Position numbers and translations under genes: made by a program
The notes under the pieces: model-generated
What the model was told of the DNA's origin: nothing
What the model saw: the letters and a program-made list of their open reading frames with translations, nothing else
The model's database searches: none
Source of the DNA: a virus
Virus record (IMG/VR): IMGVR_UViG_3300012949_000001
Strand: one strand, 5' to 3'
DNA: 64,000 bases
Shown here: positions 58,111 through 63,631 of the stretch, piece after piece
Numbering within the stretch: the first letter of the stretch is position 1
How the letters are laid out: each line of letters opens with the position of its first letter

Positions 58111-59289
58111 ATGCTAATAACAGTAAACGGCATCGAGAAAGAAGTTAATGTCATAAAGAAAGGTAATGTATGGGTCTGTAGAGTAGGCGAAGCGATAGCA
58201 TACTGGAATGCGAAGTATCAGATGCCATATGTAATATGTAAAGGTAAAACACTACAAGAGATTAATGAAATGAAACCAGTCATTGTTGCTTATCTGCGTG
58301 AATATAAGAGACTGGTTACATTAGAAAAGAAACCTTCTCCCTTATCATTTGAGGGAGAAGGAATAACTGACTCTGAATATAGAGAACAGAAGTCAGAGAA
58401 GAAAGAAGAGCATTATGTGTCTGGTGTTCCTCAATGGTTGCGTGAAGTAAAGATTAAACAGCTGTGCTCAGGACCCAAAAGAACATTTTATAGAGGCATC
58501 AGAATACCACAGGAATATAAAGACATGGCTAAAAAGTATATTCCATTTTGCTGCAACTGTGTTCACAGAGTTAATTGTGACACGCCTTGTTTATTACCAG
58601 AAGTAAAATCACAAGAAACATTATTAGAAGGTATTGAAAAGGAGGAAATGAATATGTCAAAGTTTTATGGAGTAAAGGTAGGAAGAACAGTAGGAGTTTA
58701 TACAACATGGGCAGATTGTGAGGCTCAGGTAAAAGGTTTTTCAGAAGCACAATACAAAGGCTTTAACACAAGAGAAGAAGCAGAAGAATATGTAGGAATC
58801 AAGAATCAAGCAACAACATCCAGTGAGACACAATCAAACACTAACAGCAAACTTGTTACTATCTATACTGATGGTGCATGCTCAGGAAACCCTGGCCCTG
58901 GAGGTTGGGGCTGCATTCTGATGTATAAGGAGCACTACAGAGAATACTCTGGTTATGTTCCTGATACAACCAATAACCAGATGGAATTATTAGCAGCTAT
59001 TAAGGCATTAGAACAACTCAAGTTCCCTTGCACCGTGGATTTGTATAGCGACAGCAAGTATCTTGTTAACGGTATGAATCAGTGGTTGACAAACTGGAAA
59101 CGTAACAACTGGAGAACAACATTGGGAGCAGTAAAGAATAAAGAATTATGGGAAAGACTTGATGAACTTAACAGCATTCATACTATCAGATGGCATTACG
59201 TTCAAGGTCATGCGTCTAATCAGTATAACAATCGCTGCGACCAATTAGCCACTGGTGCAATAAAGAACAAAGGACCTGTTGCACAATGA
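58111..59289 (+). CDS. rnhA: Ribonuclease HI with hybrid-binding domain and ~180-aa N-terminal extension
   Basis: FYGVKVGR..GVYTTWADC..QVKGF (HBD); IYTDGACSGNPGPGGWG, TNNQMELLA, LYSDSKY, VQGH and NNRCDQLA. Confidence 0.92.
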   Translation: MLITVNGIEKEVNVIKKGNVWVCRVGEAIAYWNAKYQMPYVICKGKTLQEINEMKPVIVAYLREYKRLVTLEKKPSPLSFEGEGITDSEYREQKSEKKEEHYVSGVPQWLREVKIKQLCSGPKRTFYRGIRIPQEYKDMAKKYIPFCCNCVHRVNCDTPCLLPEVKSQETLLEGIEKEEMNMSKFYGVKVGRTVGVYTTWADCEAQVKGFSEAQYKGFNTREEAEEYVGIKNQATTSSETQSNTNSKLVTIYTDGACSGNPGPGGWGCILMYKEHYREYSGYVPDTTNNQMELLAAIKALEQLKFPCTVDLYSDSKYLVNGMNQWLTNWKRNNWRTTLGAVKNKELWERLDELNSIHTIRWHYVQGHASNQYNNRCDQLATGAIKNKGPVAQ

Positions 59290-59293
59290 TTGT

Positions 59294-59329
59294 ATATGAG
59301 AGGGCTCTAATTATAGGGCCCTCTTATAT
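59294..59329 (+). repeat. Hairpin element H6
   Basis: 16-bp stem ATATGAGAGGGCTCTA/TAGGGCCCTCTTATAT with G-T pairs. Confidence 0.75.
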
Positions 59330-59394
59330 TTTGAGAAAGGAGCGTGATGTTATGTTTCATCTGTCTTTTTAATAATGCTCGTATGTATCCACGT

Positions 59395-59760
59395 AACGGT
59401 ACGGCCCCTTCGGGGCGTAGTGAAAAAGGTTCCTTCGGAACTACAGTCATGTTTTCCCTCACACGATATGTTTGAGGTTAAAAGTTCGTCAAAAGGCGAG
59501 CGAGCCCTTCGGGCTATCCCACACACCCTTTGGATAAAAACCAACCGTGAGGGAGACGGGTGCCAGCCTGCTCCCTCACACATCTCCCTTGCATACCCAC
59601 TCATATCATAATTTTACTCTTCCTCTATTATTAACTATTCAATAATAGGGGAAGAGGAAATAAATAGTGACGAGGGTGAACAATCTATAAGTTATTTAGA
59701 TTATGCCCTCACACGCTATTAATGAAGGCTGTCTAAGTTATTGTACGGCCTTATAAAATT
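59395..59760. ncRNA. Structured non-coding region (ncRNA or origin candidate)
   Basis: Three C-TTC-G hairpins, three CCCTCACAC copies, a 9-bp and a 16-bp helix; no convincing ORF. Confidence 0.4.
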
Positions 59761-59777
59761 TAAGCAAGGAGGATATT

Positions 59778-60318: not shown

Positions 60319-60855
60319 ATGGCTAGAAATGTAATTATTGTTGGACGTGGAAATTCTATTAGCAGACTGATTTATGATCCCGCTACACAGAAGGCATCCG
60401 CAACAGACTACACTGGACTGGTGAACACTGAAATTAAGGGTAGCACCAGAATCAACTGCTTGAGCGTACTGGTAAGGACTCTCCAGCAGTTGTCCGAGAA
60501 GGAAGGCTTCTTGGAGGAGACAACACCGACTGTTGTATATACTGTTGGCATGGTTGCAGACACAATCAATAACGGCACATTCAAGCATTGGTTGCTTGGA
60601 GAAGGCAAGAAGCTGAACGGTGAAGCAGTAAATGAAAGCGAACTGGAGCTTTGGCAGGAGTTCTCAAGACTTTATACAGAGCTGTTCTCTCACATCATCA
60701 TCAAGAACGTTGCCGACATACGTATTCCTAAGAACCCCAGATATGCTATTTCTATGGAACAGAGAATACTCAATGATTTTGTTGAGAAGGCCTGGGATAG
60801 AATCAAGGTTACGGCTCCAGAGATCGAAGAGAGCGACGACGAAGCGTTCAACTAA
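60319..60855 (+). CDS. Probable catalytically inactive RNase H-fold protein
   Basis: STRINCLSVLVRTLQQL...VVYTVG...INNG...HWLLGEGKKLNGEAVNESELELWQEF parallels RNase HI helices but lacks the acidic triad. Confidence 0.55.
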   Translation: MARNVIIVGRGNSISRLIYDPATQKASATDYTGLVNTEIKGSTRINCLSVLVRTLQQLSEKEGFLEETTPTVVYTVGMVADTINNGTFKHWLLGEGKKLNGEAVNESELELWQEFSRLYTELFSHIIIKNVADIRIPKNPRYAISMEQRILNDFVEKAWDRIKVTAPEIEESDDEAFN

Positions 60856-60865
60856 CAGGAAAAAT

Positions 60866-60888
60866 CGTTCCCCTATACTGGGGGAACG
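60866..60888 (+). terminator. GC-rich hairpin after 60319..60855
   Basis: CGTTCCCC/GGGGAACG stem; no long T-tract. Confidence 0.45.
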
Positions 60889-60949
60889 TTGGTCGCAGAA
60901 CGGTTGAAAAGTCGATACCGTGTCGTCATGCATACGATGTTGCGAATCG
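60889..60949 (+). repeat. Structured repeat motif, copy R1
   Basis: TTGGTCGCAGAACGGTTGAAAAGTCGATACCGTGTC...TGTTGCGAATCG. Confidence 0.85.
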
Positions 60950-61305
60950 CTTTACTCATATTTCACCAGACGAAGTATGAGGACATATCAGGTCTGGCGT
61001 TGGCATCCCTAACCAGCATAGGGTGTCGCGAAAATACAAAGCTGGTAGCCGTGTTTTTCATTTGTTTGGCGGCGGAAAATCAGAATAACAAGTGCAGGGT
61101 ACCCACTCTGAAAACTGGGTAGAGAATGGGTGCGGACATTCTCCCTACGTCCCGCACGATGTAGGAATATTCGGTATATATGCAAAGGTCCCGGCCGGAG
61201 CATGGTTGCCTCTTGTTCATAGGAACAACAGGTATATATATTGTCATGAGTATATGCGTAAAAAACCTGTTCCCAAATGACATTCCGGTCTTTGAGGGCA
61301 GGTTT

Positions 61306-61373
61306 TTGGCCACAGAACGGTTGAAAAATCGAAACCGTGTCATAGTATGTCCAGGCTATGATGTTGTGGATCG
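61306..61373 (+). repeat. Structured repeat motif, copy R2
   Basis: TTGGCCACAGAACGGTTGAAAAATCGAAACCGTGTC...TGTTGTGGATCG. Confidence 0.85.
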
Positions 61374-61641
61374 TCGTCTTATAGGCTGTCGTGTCCTGAC
61401 TACCAGACTATAAGAACAGAGACTTCCTTTCTTATAACGAAGTGTCAGGTAGGAGACCCATCCTATGCTATAGACATTATAGCAGAATGGTAGAGAGTAG
61501 GATGTGGCTACTCTCCCTGCAACCACATCAAGCGGGCATGTATTTGGAATATGTATTTGGAGAAAAGCTGAAAAGCCCACGCCGCTAGGAGAAAACTCGG
61601 CCTTGGGGAAAGAGAGAAATGAGGACCGAAGGCGACGTGGG

Positions 61642-61700
61642 TTGGTCTCAGAACGGTTGAAAAGTCCATACCGTGCTAATCAGATTAGTGTTGAGAATGG
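61642..61700 (+). repeat. Structured repeat motif, copy R3
   Basis: TTGGTCTCAGAACGGTTGAAAAGTCCATACCGTGCT...TGTTGAGAATGG. Confidence 0.85.
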
Positions 61701-61726
61701 CAAATACGCACAAGGAGGCATAACAT

Positions 61727-62002
61727 ATGAACACCAGTAACACAGTAAGGCTTTCAGGGACACATGATTTTGGCCCGTTATATAAGTTTAAGCCAGACAT
61801 AGGTTTACTTATAATACTGCCGCCAAACTGTATGAGGAAAGCCTGTACTAAAGGACGTATTAAAAAGAGTATAGTAGCAAAGTTGAGAGACCTGACTCTG
61901 GAGAACATGCTTGATCTCAATGAAAAGCATGGTGTAACTTTCGAGGCAGTGAACAAGACTTTGGTACTAGAGAAATTAAGAATGGGAGGAACACTGTCAT
62001 GA
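61727..62002 (+). CDS. Hypothetical protein, 91 aa
   Basis: RBS AAGGAGG. Confidence 0.65.
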   Translation: MNTSNTVRLSGTHDFGPLYKFKPDIGLLIILPPNCMRKACTKGRIKKSIVAKLRDLTLENMLDLNEKHGVTFEAVNKTLVLEKLRMGGTLS

Positions 62003-62298: not shown

Positions 62299-62796
62299 AT
62301 GGCACCAACAAAAGAGATAGACGTATTCGTAGACGGCAGCTGTACAGGCAATGGCCAGCCTGGTGCCGAAGGAGGTTGGGCATTCTTTGCGACACTGCCT
62401 AACTCAATAGATATAATAAATGGGTCAATCCATATAGGCAAACTCAGGATAGGCAAGCAAACAAATAACAGAGCCGAACTTGAATCAGTCTATCAAGGTT
62501 TACTATGGATAGACGCACAACCGAATGATGGAACAAGATATACTATATGGAGTGATTCAGAAGTAGCTGTTAATGGTATAAATGGTTCCTCTGGAAGAAA
62601 TGCGAATAGAGACATATGGGAAGACATCGAACCACTATGTAGAAAACTCGTAAGAGAAAAGAAACTTGCAGGAGTAAATTATATTGAAGGTCATAAGAAA
62701 AACAGCACAGAGCCCCGTCACATAAATAATTGTGCATGTGATAAATTGGCTAAGCAAGGAACCAATAGTTTATTATTAGAACCATATCAACCATAA
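62299..62796 (+). CDS. Second ribonuclease H (RNase HI family)
   Basis: VFVDGSCTGNG, TNNRAELESV, IWSDSEVAVNG, IEGH and NCACDKLAK; catalytic D/E/D/D present. Confidence 0.88.
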   Translation: MAPTKEIDVFVDGSCTGNGQPGAEGGWAFFATLPNSIDIINGSIHIGKLRIGKQTNNRAELESVYQGLLWIDAQPNDGTRYTIWSDSEVAVNGINGSSGRNANRDIWEDIEPLCRKLVREKKLAGVNYIEGHKKNSTEPRHINNCACDKLAKQGTNSLLLEPYQP

Positions 62797-62812: not shown

Positions 62813-63631
62813 ATGGCTAAACCTACAGTAAATAATGACACTGTAATAGTATTCGGTGGCAAGACATATAATGTTGAACAATTTGCCAACGAATTTTCAG
62901 CTGGTAATACAGATATAGCTATTCTCACAATGGAGAAATTGTTGGAGACAGGTAGAGCTCATCTGTTTAACGAAGTCAAATCAAGACAAATTAAAGCACT
63001 GGAGAAGACATTTACAGAACAGCAAATCAAAGAAGCCGCAGCAGAACATGAATATTTCGAAGAAGCAGGAAAAGACTTCAGAGCCGAAGAGAAAAGAGAA
63101 GGAAGACTCACATATGAACTTGTTGAGTTTGATTTCCCTTATATGTTGAAGGCTCAGGAGTTTGAACGTTACGTTAAAGAAGACCTCAGGATAAAAGATA
63201 CAGAAATATCTGTACGTAACGGTCAATGTGTCCTGAAGGTTTATAATGTAACTGATTCAGAAATCAATGTAATGAGTAGAGCCTATAAGGCAGATAAGAT
63301 TACCCAGACTGCCGTAGGAGCTGTAGATAACACTGTCAAGAAAGCAACAGACGCTGTTCATTATGGAGCAACTAAGATTGTAGCTCCTATAGCAAAAGCA
63401 GGAGCAAAAGCAAGTGCAAGTATTCTGAAGACAGTGTTGACCACCGCAGCAAAGACAGCAGGTGGTTTTGTATCAGCGACCACTCAGGGAATCAAGAGTG
63501 CCGCAACCGAAATCAAAAATGATCCTGATGTATTAAAAGGAACAAGAGATGTCCTTGAAGCTGGTGACGCTATCAGACGTAAAATCAAGTTTGAGCATCC
63601 TGGCGGTAAAGGCATTCGTGTTTACCAGTAG
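62813..63631 (+). CDS. Hypothetical protein, 272 aa, Ala/Thr-rich C-terminus
   Basis: RBS AAAGGAG. Confidence 0.7.
   Translation: MAKPTVNNDTVIVFGGKTYNVEQFANEFSAGNTDIAILTMEKLLETGRAHLFNEVKSRQIKALEKTFTEQQIKEAAAEHEYFEEAGKDFRAEEKREGRLTYELVEFDFPYMLKAQEFERYVKEDLRIKDTEISVRNGQCVLKVYNVTDSEINVMSRAYKADKITQTAVGAVDNTVKKATDAVHYGATKIVAPIAKAGAKASASILKTVLTTAAKTAGGFVSATTQGIKSAATEIKNDPDVLKGTRDVLEAGDAIRRKIKFEHPGGKGIRVYQ

What the first reader, a model, noticed from the sequence alone, without database searches (positions are those of the whole stretch)
60925..61641. Repeat-spacer-repeat-spacer-repeat array with long, heavily structured spacers
Seen: the 381-nt and 300-nt intervals between the 36-nt cores have no ORF with a convincing RBS, are GC-richer than coding DNA and are rich in helices. 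Examples: 61144-51/61158-65, 61261-72/61296-307, 61409-16/61429-36, 61459-65/61498-504 enclosing 61466-72/61478-84, and 61574-85/61632-43. Each repeat starts right at the 3' arm of a strong helix (also 60866-88 before R1). Inference: a polycistronic ncRNA precursor cut at the repeats into two ~300-400 nt RNAs, loosely like a CRISPR array but with structured cargo.
Basis: partly seen in the sequence, partly recalled or inferred. Interest (0 to 1): 0.75.

Follow-up and report, generated by a model that had tools for sequence, protein, structure and literature searches.

The report
Pseudoknotted RNA element heading phage RNA modules
The three "repeats" are the front halves of a previously undescribed, pseudoknotted RNA element of about 60-70 nt in this phage (52-85 nt across relatives) that starts each RNA module in this non-coding stretch: two related, highly structured non-coding RNAs and then the next genes' mRNA; it is not a CRISPR-like array.

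Summary
Three 35-nt direct repeats lie at 60888, 61305 and 61641 (+ strand), with none expected by chance, and each directly abuts an upstream hairpin.

The repeat is not a self-contained unit. It is the 5' half of a three-stem pseudoknotted RNA motif: UUGG, P1, a P2 hairpin with an invariant UGAAAA loop, an optional P3 hairpin, and a pseudoknot between the P2 loop and the tail after P1.
- On 16 instances from the window and related phage contigs, 96% of cells pair, against 23-43% in slid controls. 12 of 19 pairs show compensatory changes.
- No Rfam family matches.

The motif also heads ordinary genes. It is carried by mobile HNH-endonuclease cassettes built as motif, ORF, hairpin.

The two "spacers" are paralogous ncRNAs conserved in relatives, with further covarying helices.

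My best reading (about 0.45) is a cis-acting 5' boundary element on a polycistronic transcript. The RNA would be cut between hairpin and UUGG, by itself or by a host RNase, and the element would protect the new 5' end. No RNA data exist, so cleavage is inferred.

CRISPR-likeness is rejected.

The scan holds notes only on this same window, none on other DNA.

The parts
60866..60888 (+). P0(1): hairpin cgttcccc/ggggaacg, 10 nt after the stop of gene 60319-60855; its last paired base touches UUGG
   Evidence: dG -21, 0 nt gap
60889..60949 (+). Motif copy 1. UUGG 60889-92; P1 60893-97 with 60941-45; P2 60900-04 with 60917-21 (loop UGAAAAGUCGAU 60905-16); P3 60923-26 with 60934-37; pseudoknot 60913-16 with 60946-49
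   Evidence: CM R1 77.8 bits over 60887-60953; pair counts
60950..61261 (+). Body of ncRNA module 1. Hairpin 60955-64/60972-81 with conserved loop ACCAGAC (60965-71), complementary to GUCUGG at 60992-97. GGUAGAG domain 61118-61165: helices a 61122-28/61137-43, b 61130-35/61151-56 (GTGCGG/CCGCAC, the run found) and c 61144-48/61161-65
   Evidence: homologous bodies in L001, L003, L037, L060
61262..61305 (+). P0(2): long hairpin with an A-tract before it and a T5 run after it (terminator-like); the T run overlaps UUGG of copy 2
   Evidence: (I3)
61306..61373 (+). Motif copy 2. UUGG 61306-09; P1 CCACA 61310-14 with UGUGG 61365-69; pseudoknot tail AUCG 61370-73
   Evidence: CM R1 78.2 bits over 61304-61377
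61374..61575 (+). Body of ncRNA module 2, a paralogue of body 1. Hairpin CUUAUAG/CUAUAAG with an ACCAGA-containing loop; GGUAGAG domain 61489-61536
61576..61641 (+). P0(3): hairpin cccacgccgc...gcgacgtggg, touching UUGG of copy 3
61642..61700 (+). Motif copy 3 (P1 UCUCA/UGAGA, pseudoknot CCAU/AUGG). It is the leader of the next gene: RBS AAGGAGG 61712-18, ATG 61727
   Evidence: CM R1 77.0 bits over 61640-61704

Best explanation
The non-coding stretch 60866-61726 is transcribed on the + strand and is built of modules. Each module starts with (U)UGG and a pseudoknotted three-stem RNA element, 59-68 nt in this window and 46-85 nt across relatives. Each module ends with a hairpin that directly abuts the next module.

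The 35-nt 'repeat' is the conserved 5' half of that element: P1 5' strand, P2 hairpin with invariant UGAAAA loop, and pseudoknot 5' strand. Modules 1 and 2 carry paralogous pseudoknot-rich ncRNAs, with bodies of about 310 and 200 nt. Module 3 is the mRNA of gene 61727 and the genes after it.

I read the element as a cis-acting boundary element for RNA 5' ends on a polycistronic transcript. The RNA would be cut in or next to the junction between hairpin and UUGG, either by the element itself or by a host endoribonuclease. The upstream hairpin would then guard the new 3' end. The knotted element would guard the new 5' end against 5'-to-3' decay (RNase J in a Firmicute host).

Shown: the repeats, the fold (four covarying helices), the strand, the modular layout, its use before genes and in mobile HNH cassettes, and the homology of the two bodies.

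Inferred: transcription as one precursor, the cut, its position, and the protective role.
For: Fold:
- On a MAFFT alignment of 16 instances, not fitted to the structure, 96.1% of cells pair against 23-43% when partners are slid by 1-3 columns. 12 of 19 pairs have changes on both sides. 0 of 500 shuffles reach the covariation score.
- P1 occurs as UCGCA/UGCGA, CCACA/UGUGG, UCUCA/UGAGA, UCAUA/UAUGA, UUGCA/UGCAA, UCACU/AGUGA, AUACA/UGUAU and CUGCA/UGCAG, and UCGUU/AACGA.
- P2 occurs as CGGU/ACCG, GCCU/AGGC and GUCA/UGAC.
- The pseudoknot alternates CGAU/AUCG and CCAU/AUGG.

Strand: 12 G.U cells against 1 A.C cell.

Specificity: model R1 gives exactly three hits of 77-78 bits in the window; the next best is 14 bits.

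Boundary position: the hairpin touches (U)UGG in 16 of 19 instances although hairpin sequences differ.

Module logic:
- Copy number is 1 (L005), 2 (L001, L003, L060) or 3 (window, L037).
- The last copy always sits 15-25 nt before the RBS of the next gene.
- HNH endonuclease cassettes (PHROG 3377, E 1e-43 to 1e-47) in L037 and L004 consist of a minimal motif, RBS and ORF, then a hairpin. They are inserted at the junction between hairpin and UUGG.

Independence from the phage's own RNA polymerase and RNase H: the motif also occurs in an unrelated 37-kb IMG/VR phage contig in which neither was found.

Bodies: helices a, b and c of the GGUAGAG domain pair perfectly in 5 different sequences with different letters.

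Precedent: three-way-junction plus loop-to-tail pseudoknot folds (flaviviral xrRNAs) mechanically stop bacterial RNase J1 (PMC5760640).
Against: - No RNA data: no end, cut or transcript has been seen.
- The upstream hairpin could equally be a fourth helix of the element itself, in which case no cut is needed.
- Only P0(2) looks like a canonical terminator, so termination plus re-initiation cannot be fully excluded for that junction.
- No catalytic core or nuclease site can be named.
- The sample of instances is small (about 20) and comes from a few related phage lineages, so shared ancestry inflates the cell counts. The many different pair types per position do not depend on that.
Confidence: 0.45

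Rival explanations
1. Regulatory leader without cleavage. The element, including the upstream hairpin as a fourth helix, binds a small ligand, a protein or the transcribing RNA polymerase. Models are riboswitches or cis-acting antitermination RNAs such as HK022 put or EAR. It would control expression of whatever follows.
For: - About 12-15 conserved unpaired nucleotides (UGG, AA before P2, UGAAAA, G before P1 3' strand). That is typical of ligand- or protein-binding folds.
- It always lies in 5' leader position on the coding strand.
- The hairpin adjacency fits an integral helix as well as a cut site.
Against: - No expression platform. In gene-proximal copies the pseudoknot tail is followed by 15-25 A/U-rich nt and a free RBS, with no terminator or sequestering helix.
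- It also heads ncRNA bodies that need no translational control.
- It is present in a phage contig in which the window's polymerase was not found, so it is not specific to that polymerase.
- No Rfam riboswitch or leader family matches.
Confidence: 0.22
2. DNA-level element. The repeats are promoters of a phage RNA polymerase, possibly hairpin promoters as in phage N4, each following a terminator. Alternatively the region is a replication origin whose structured transcripts are processed by the flanking RNases H into primers, as with ColE1 RNA II.
For:
- P0(2) is terminator-like.
- The YonO-dependent start site in SPbeta lies upstream of an unannotated ncRNA, and the YonO promoter is unknown (PMC5467207).
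- Free-standing homing endonuclease genes often carry their own promoters (my own knowledge).
Against: - Four helices, one spanning up to 70 nt and one a pseudoknot, covary with G.U pairs on one strand only. This is expected of RNA, not of duplex DNA signals.
- RNA starting downstream of a promoter inside the repeat would lack P1 and P2, so nothing would select for their pairing.
- No conserved -10 element.
- Nothing upstream of UUGG is conserved in sequence.
- The motif exists in a contig in which that polymerase and RNase H were not found.
Confidence: 0.1
3. CRISPR-like mini-array, or repeat-mimicking anti-CRISPR RNA (solitary repeat units), with very long spacers.
For: Three near-identical repeats of CRISPR-like length, each containing a small hairpin, in a phage.
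Against: - Spacers are 381 and 300 nt, homologous to each other and conserved across relatives.
- The repeat pairs with sequence inside the 'spacer'.
- The same element heads genes.
- No cas gene was found among the neighbours.
- The motif was not found in 150 other genomes of the Lachnospiraceae family, the only host hint.
Confidence: 0.02
4. Protein-coding under a recoded stop codon. The repeats are in one frame and both spacings are multiples of 3.
For: Spacings of 417 and 336 nt. Three same-frame ORFs of 77-78 aa contain the repeats.
Against: - That frame has both TAG and TAA stops.
- Relatives differ by indels that are not multiples of 3.
- The substitution pattern is compensatory base-pairing.
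Confidence: 0.01

Closest known systems
Flaviviral exoribonuclease-resistant RNAs (xrRNA)
   Same: - Compact three-way junction.
- Pseudoknot between a hairpin loop and the strand just after P1.
- A few conserved single-stranded nt before P1.
- Occurs in tandem.
- Sits at the 5' end of a stable structured ncRNA.
- xrRNAs stop bacterial RNase J1 in vitro (PMC5760640).
   Different: - The loop that makes the pseudoknot belongs to the first hairpin after P1, not the last.
- No sequence or Rfam match.
- A DNA phage of a probable Firmicute host.
- An upstream hairpin abuts the element.
- Resistance to exonucleases is untested.
5'-cleaving small ribozymes in phages (HDV-like 'theta' ribozymes next to phage tRNAs, PMC10879173; hatchet)
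   Same: - An intergenic, coding-strand, pseudoknotted element placed directly after a structured upstream RNA.
- P1 stacks on a loop-to-tail helix, as P1 stacks on P1.1 in HDV, with the 5' strand entering at that junction.
- Several copies per locus.
   Different: - No P2, P4 or J4/2 with a catalytic C.
- An extra hairpin between the P2 3' strand and the P1 3' strand.
- The first P1 pair is U-A, not G.U.
- No hit to any Rfam ribozyme model.
- Cleavage is untested.
- How theta ribozymes work is taken from my own knowledge and the abstracts.
Inter-cistronic processing sites and 5' stabilisers of phage early RNAs (T7 RNase III sites; Bacillus phage SP82 sites) - own knowledge
   Same: Punctuation of a polycistronic phage transcript. 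It leaves hairpin-protected 3' ends and structured, stabilising 5' ends.
   Different: Those are simple long hairpins cut by RNase III. Here a conserved pseudoknotted fold follows a variable hairpin.
CRISPR arrays and solitary repeat units
   Same: Repeat length and regular recurrence.
   Different: See the membership test. Spacer length and uniqueness, repeat autonomy and cas linkage all fail.
Tandem paralogous sRNA genes (for example LhrC1-5, Qrr, RsmX) - own knowledge
   Same: Two paralogous ncRNAs in tandem sharing their most conserved segment. Copy number varies between relatives (0, 1 or 2 bodies).
   Different: The shared segment is also used as an mRNA leader and travels with mobile HNH cassettes. 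The bodies, at about 200-310 nt, are larger than these sRNAs and rich in pseudoknots.

Membership tests
CRISPR array | Near-identical direct repeats of 23-50 nt | tested here: met
   35 nt, 86-94% identity
CRISPR array | Unique spacers of uniform short length (about 25-75 nt) | tested here: not met
   381 and 300 nt; paralogous to each other and conserved in relatives
CRISPR array | The repeat is a self-contained unit | tested here: not met
   The repeat's P1 and pseudoknot partners lie downstream in the 'spacer' and covary
CRISPR array | Associated cas genes | tested here: not met
   None among 19 neighbouring + strand proteins in Pfam and PHROGs; the PADLOC library was not run
HDV-like ribozyme | Nested double pseudoknot with P1, P1.1, P2, P3, (P4) and a catalytic C in J4/2 | tested here: not met
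   A P1 plus loop-to-tail helix and a P3-like hairpin exist, but no P2 partner, P4 or J4/2 could be placed by inspection. No hit to the Rfam HDV models at E <= 10
Hammerhead, twister, twister-sister, pistol, hatchet, hairpin ribozymes | Match to the family's covariance model or conserved core | tested here: not met
   cmscan of 60700-61800 at E <= 10 gave only a chance ATPC hit; relatives also negative. The junction strands (GAA / G / GUGUU) do not fit the hammerhead core
Self-cleaving ribozyme (any class) | Site-specific self-scission giving 2',3'-cyclic phosphate and 5'-OH | not testable with these tools
   Needs in vitro transcription or end-specific RNA-seq
xrRNA | Three-way junction plus a pseudoknot between a hairpin loop and the strand 3' of P1 | tested here: met
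   P1, P2, P3 and the pseudoknot are supported by covariation. The minimal HNH-linked variant lacks P3
xrRNA | Pairing of the 5' single strand with junction nucleotides, closing a ring around the 5' end | tested here: inconclusive
   UU of UUGG could pair with the conserved AA before P2, but there is no covariation to test it
xrRNA | Halts 5'-to-3' exoribonucleases | not testable with these tools
   Needs an RNase J1 or Xrn1 challenge assay
Riboswitch | Aptamer coupled to an expression platform (terminator or RBS sequestor) | tested here: not met
   No such helix between the pseudoknot tail and the RBS in the gene-proximal copies; no Rfam hit
tRNA / tmRNA | Recognised by ARAGORN | tested here: not met
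   0 genes in the window
Sigma-70-type promoter after a terminator | Conserved -35 and -10 hexamers at fixed spacing | tested here: not met
   TTGAAA is invariant, but the -10 position falls in the covarying P3 strand and is not conserved

The most novel reading that the evidence does not exclude
The element is a new class of autonomous RNA device. Either it is a self-cleaving ribozyme that cuts at its own 5' edge, between the hairpin and UUGG. Or it is the first phage or bacterial exoribonuclease-resistant RNA. In both cases phages, and the homing-endonuclease cassettes riding in them, would use it to punctuate polycistronic RNA and release stable, pseudoknot-rich ncRNAs of unknown and possibly anti-host function.
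Probability: 0.25. Interest if true: 0.9.

Novelty: categorically new. Interest (0 to 1): 0.72.

Why it matters
A compact RNA fold with four covarying helices, about a dozen conserved unpaired nucleotides, no Rfam relative and a fixed position at module boundaries is the kind of signature that has in the past turned out to be a ribozyme, a riboswitch or a nuclease-blocking knot.

It is short: 52 nt in its smallest natural form, L007 4256-4307. That makes it directly testable in vitro.

If it cuts or shields RNA on its own, it would be a new tool for RNA processing. It would also explain how phages with densely packed operons, and selfish HNH cassettes that insert between genes, define RNA ends without host signals.

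The two cargo RNAs are themselves an undescribed family of pseudoknot-rich phage ncRNAs (bodies of about 200-310 nt) whose copy number varies between relatives.

Tried and rejected
RNA evidence: no RNA holder was listed for the stretch. Laying four DNA runs gave only fragmentary contigs at 99% identity or more, with no joints or copy-number variants.

Database searches:
- No DNA match in the 50,697 GenBank phage records.
- IMG/VR holds no relative of the flanking proteins, whether searched as single proteins or as an alignment.
- The strict repeat pattern found nothing in IMG/VR. A looser one gave 10 hits, of which only L007 is real.
- The metagenome pattern scan gave 20 hits with 1 real (L027). 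The genome scan gave 19 hits with 1 real (L041, a contig binned in a Lachnospiraceae MAG).
- The motif was not found in the 150 other genomes of that family that were searched.
- One relative's contig could not be fetched because the file was too large.

Ideas dropped:
- Stop-codon recoding: TAG and TAA stops are mixed.
- A sigma-70 promoter using the invariant TTGAAA: no conserved -10.
- Hammerhead, pistol (including a circular permutation) and HDV threading by eye: junction strands and helices do not fit.
- RNase P RNA, because of 'ACAGAAC': no Rfam hit.
- Pairing of UUGGU with an ACCA just after the start codon of the next gene. It is present in the orthologous genes but absent in L007 and L027, so it is probably shared ancestry.
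- An obligatory link to the split RNA polymerase or RNase H: neither was found in the L007 contig (that contig is about 80% complete).
- A simultaneous kissing-loop fold of helices a, b and c in the bodies. This is sterically doubtful because a' and c are contiguous. Either a tight pseudoknot or alternative folds remain possible; this was left open.

Full report
**1. Observation**

The repeat finder gives three direct repeats of 35 nt at 60888-60922, 61305-61339 and 61641-61675. They are 86-94% identical and spaced 417 and 336 nt apart. The 27-nt core occurs three times in the 64-kb window, all on the + strand; 100 shuffles gave none.

The 871 nt between the stop of gene 60319-60855 and the ATG at 61727 has stops in every + frame. 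The frame that holds all three repeats is closed by both TAG and TAA.

GC is 0.43-0.50, against 0.35-0.40 in most neighbouring genes. The region folds better than shuffles on both strands, z = -3.9 and -4.4, so folding energy alone says little. There is no tRNA or tmRNA and no Rfam family at gathering score or at E <= 10.

**2. Setting**

The window is a large phage. Very long ORFs lie on the - strand and an arm of small genes on the + strand from about 47.9 kb. It has no DNA match among GenBank phages.

Two RNase H genes (58111-59289 and 62299-62796) flank the region.

Near-identical DNA occurs in bioreactor, manure and sludge metagenomes. Three things hint at a Firmicute host. Shine-Dalgarno sequences are strong (seen directly in the sequence). 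There is a Hydrolase_2 (SleB-type) cell-wall hydrolase domain. A related contig is binned in a Lachnospiraceae MAG.

**3. Relatives**

The upstream 178-aa protein has 12 relatives at 47-68% identity. Their contigs (L001-L005, L036-L038, L058-L060) keep the gene order and a non-coding gap of 290-1300 nt after that gene. The repeat recurs there:
- once in L005;
- twice in L001, L003, L004 and L060;
- three times in L037.

**4. What the repeat really is**

Reading the copies side by side shows that the repeat is the 5' half of a larger element:

[variable hairpin P0] - (U)UGG - P1 5' strand (5 nt) - GAA - P2 hairpin (4-5 bp, 12-nt loop UGAAAAnUCsAU) - G - P3 hairpin (variable, optional) - GUGUU - P1 3' strand - AUsG

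The last four letters pair with CsAU at the 3' end of the P2 loop. That is a pseudoknot which stacks on P1.

P1 takes at least nine different sequences, and both strands change together. P2 is CGGU/ACCG in most copies, GCCU/AGGC in L004b and GUCA/UGAC in L037a. The pseudoknot alternates CGAU/AUCG and CCAU/AUGG.

I counted pairs on a plain MAFFT alignment of 16 instances (A2), not fitted to any structure. The 19 pairs of P1, P2, P3 and the pseudoknot are formed in 96.1% of cells, against 23-43% when the 3' partners are slid by 1-3 columns. 12 pairs have changes on both sides, and no shuffle out of 500 reaches the observed covariation score.

G.U cells outnumber A.C cells 12 to 1 when the motif and body helices are taken together. 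So the folded molecule is the + strand, that is, RNA.

A covariance model (R1) finds exactly the three window copies at 77-78 bits. With filters off nothing else scores above 14 bits. It also finds true copies in three other places:
- an unrelated 37-kb IMG/VR contig (L007, 50.6 bits, smallest form 52 nt);
- a JGI contig (L027);
- the Lachnospiraceae-binned contig (L041, 71 bits, with a further P1 variant UCGUU/AACGA).

It was not found in 150 other genomes of that family. The relatives have no Rfam hit either.

**5. Position and modules**

In 16 of 19 instances the last paired base of an upstream hairpin touches (U)UGG. In the other three the gap is 2 nt. The hairpins differ in sequence and length, from 6 to more than 16 bp.

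The last copy of each locus is followed, after 15-25 A/U-rich nt, by a strong RBS and the next gene. In L007 and L027 the motif heads 150-190-nt leaders of other genes.

In L037 and L004 an HNH endonuclease gene (PHROG 3377, E 1e-43 and 1e-47) has been inserted. The inserted DNA is in both cases [minimal motif without P3] - [RBS and ORF] - [hairpin]. In L037 it sits exactly between the old hairpin and the old motif, which now follows the cassette's own hairpin. In L004 it has replaced the 5' part of the next motif, which is left degenerate (25.6 bits).

So the natural unit is (U)UGG-motif + cargo + hairpin. The cargo may be an ORF, an operon or an ncRNA.

**6. The 'spacers'**

The two window bodies are paralogues, and they are homologous to the single bodies of L001, L003, L037 and L060. 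Shared features are:
- a hairpin with covarying stem and a conserved loop ACCAGAC, complementary to a downstream G(U)CUGGU;
- a domain GGUA-a-b-a'-c-NN-b'-N-c', in which a/a' (7-9 bp), b/b' (6-7 bp, using the whole loop of hairpin a) and c/c' (5 bp) pair without a mismatch in all five distinct sequences, although the letters differ.

Because a' and c are contiguous, the three helices form either a very tight pseudoknot or alternative folds.

The bodies are therefore conserved, pseudoknot-rich ncRNAs, not spacers. L005 has none, most relatives have one and the window has two.

**7. Mechanism**

The fold begins exactly where the preceding hairpin ends. It is used before mRNAs, ncRNAs and selfish cassettes alike, and it lacks any expression platform. 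It also occurs in a phage contig in which the window's polymerase and RNase H were not found (that contig is about 80% complete).

This points to an RNA-autonomous or host-dependent function at module boundaries. The simplest such function is definition and protection of RNA ends on a polycistronic transcript. A cut at the junction between hairpin and UUGG would leave a hairpin-capped 3' end upstream and a knotted 5' end downstream.

Two sub-mechanisms fit the architecture:
- *Self-cleavage at the 5' edge.* The 5' strand enters at the junction of P1 and the stacked loop-to-tail helix. This is the geometry of the HDV family, whose phage members ('theta' ribozymes) sit directly after tRNAs (PMC10879173; details from my own knowledge).
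- *A mechanical block to 5'-to-3' exonucleases.* A three-way junction plus a loop-to-tail pseudoknot is the xrRNA plan, and xrRNAs stop bacterial RNase J1 (PMC5760640).

Neither is shown. The element fails the membership tests for HDV-like and all other Rfam ribozymes. It meets only the topological features of xrRNAs.

**8. Rivals**

- *An uncut regulatory leader* (ligand, protein or polymerase binding) remains possible, because P0 could be an integral fourth helix.
- *DNA-level readings* (promoters, origin, RNase H-processed primers) are disfavoured by strand-specific covariation across four helices, the absence of any conserved upstream or -10 element, and the L007 context. P0(2) is nevertheless terminator-like. 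In SPbeta the YonO-dependent start does precede an unannotated ncRNA (PMC5467207).
- *CRISPR-like and coding readings* fail direct tests.

**9. Novelty and verdict**

The CRISPR analogy is wrong.

What is there is an undescribed RNA family plus an undescribed cargo ncRNA family. It is known so far from about 20 instances in a handful of phage lineages from digesters, manure and gut-type samples.

The structure is high-confidence and the function is inferred. It is small enough for immediate bench tests.

Noticed in passing
L037:1469-2025 and L004:6092-6620: Free-standing HNH endonuclease cassettes (PHROG 3377) that carry their own minimal copy of the motif (no P3; P2 GUCA/UGAC or GCCU/AGGC) and end in a hairpin. 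They are inserted at or inside a resident motif. L004:6623-6686 is the degenerate remnant.
   Followed up: partly
window 59290-59777: A second GC-rich non-coding block, about 490 nt, after the first RNase H gene. The relatives keep a 600-700-nt gap at the same place. Model R1 does not hit it. It may be another ncRNA.
   Followed up: no
window 61262-61309: The hairpin before repeat 2 has an A-tract before it and a T5 run after it, like a bidirectional intrinsic terminator. The hairpins before repeats 1 and 3 have only two U after them.
   Followed up: partly
window 60889-61740: All three repeats lie in one reading frame, both spacings are multiples of 3, and three same-frame ORFs of 77-78 aa contain them. 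Mixed TAG/TAA stops and indels that are not multiples of 3 in relatives argue that this is coincidence.
   Followed up: yes
L058 (ends at 1483) and L059 (ends at 1275): Independent assemblies of the same phage break within or just after repeat 1, as expected if the repeats confuse assemblers. Copy numbers in short contigs should be read with care.
   Followed up: no
window 61727-61745; L001:5725-5745; L003:6071-6090; L037:2461-2480: An ACCA(A/G) complementary to UUGGU lies within the first five codons of the gene after the last motif copy, although the amino acids differ. It is absent in L007 and L027. Possibly a long-range pairing, more likely shared ancestry.
   Followed up: partly
L041 (JAQYAV010000095.1, Lachnospiraceae MAG contig): A 9.7-kb contig of a related phage binned with a Lachnospiraceae genome. 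It carries two RNase H genes and the 267-aa homologue of window 62813-63631. Here the motif lies after that gene instead of after the 178-aa gene. This is only a hint at the host.
   Followed up: partly
window 49864, 52868, 53857, 53983: Four exact AAAATTTGA on the + strand of the small-gene arm (about 16 kb), against three in the other roughly 48 kb, all on the - strand. Counts with one mismatch are not above chance.
   Followed up: partly
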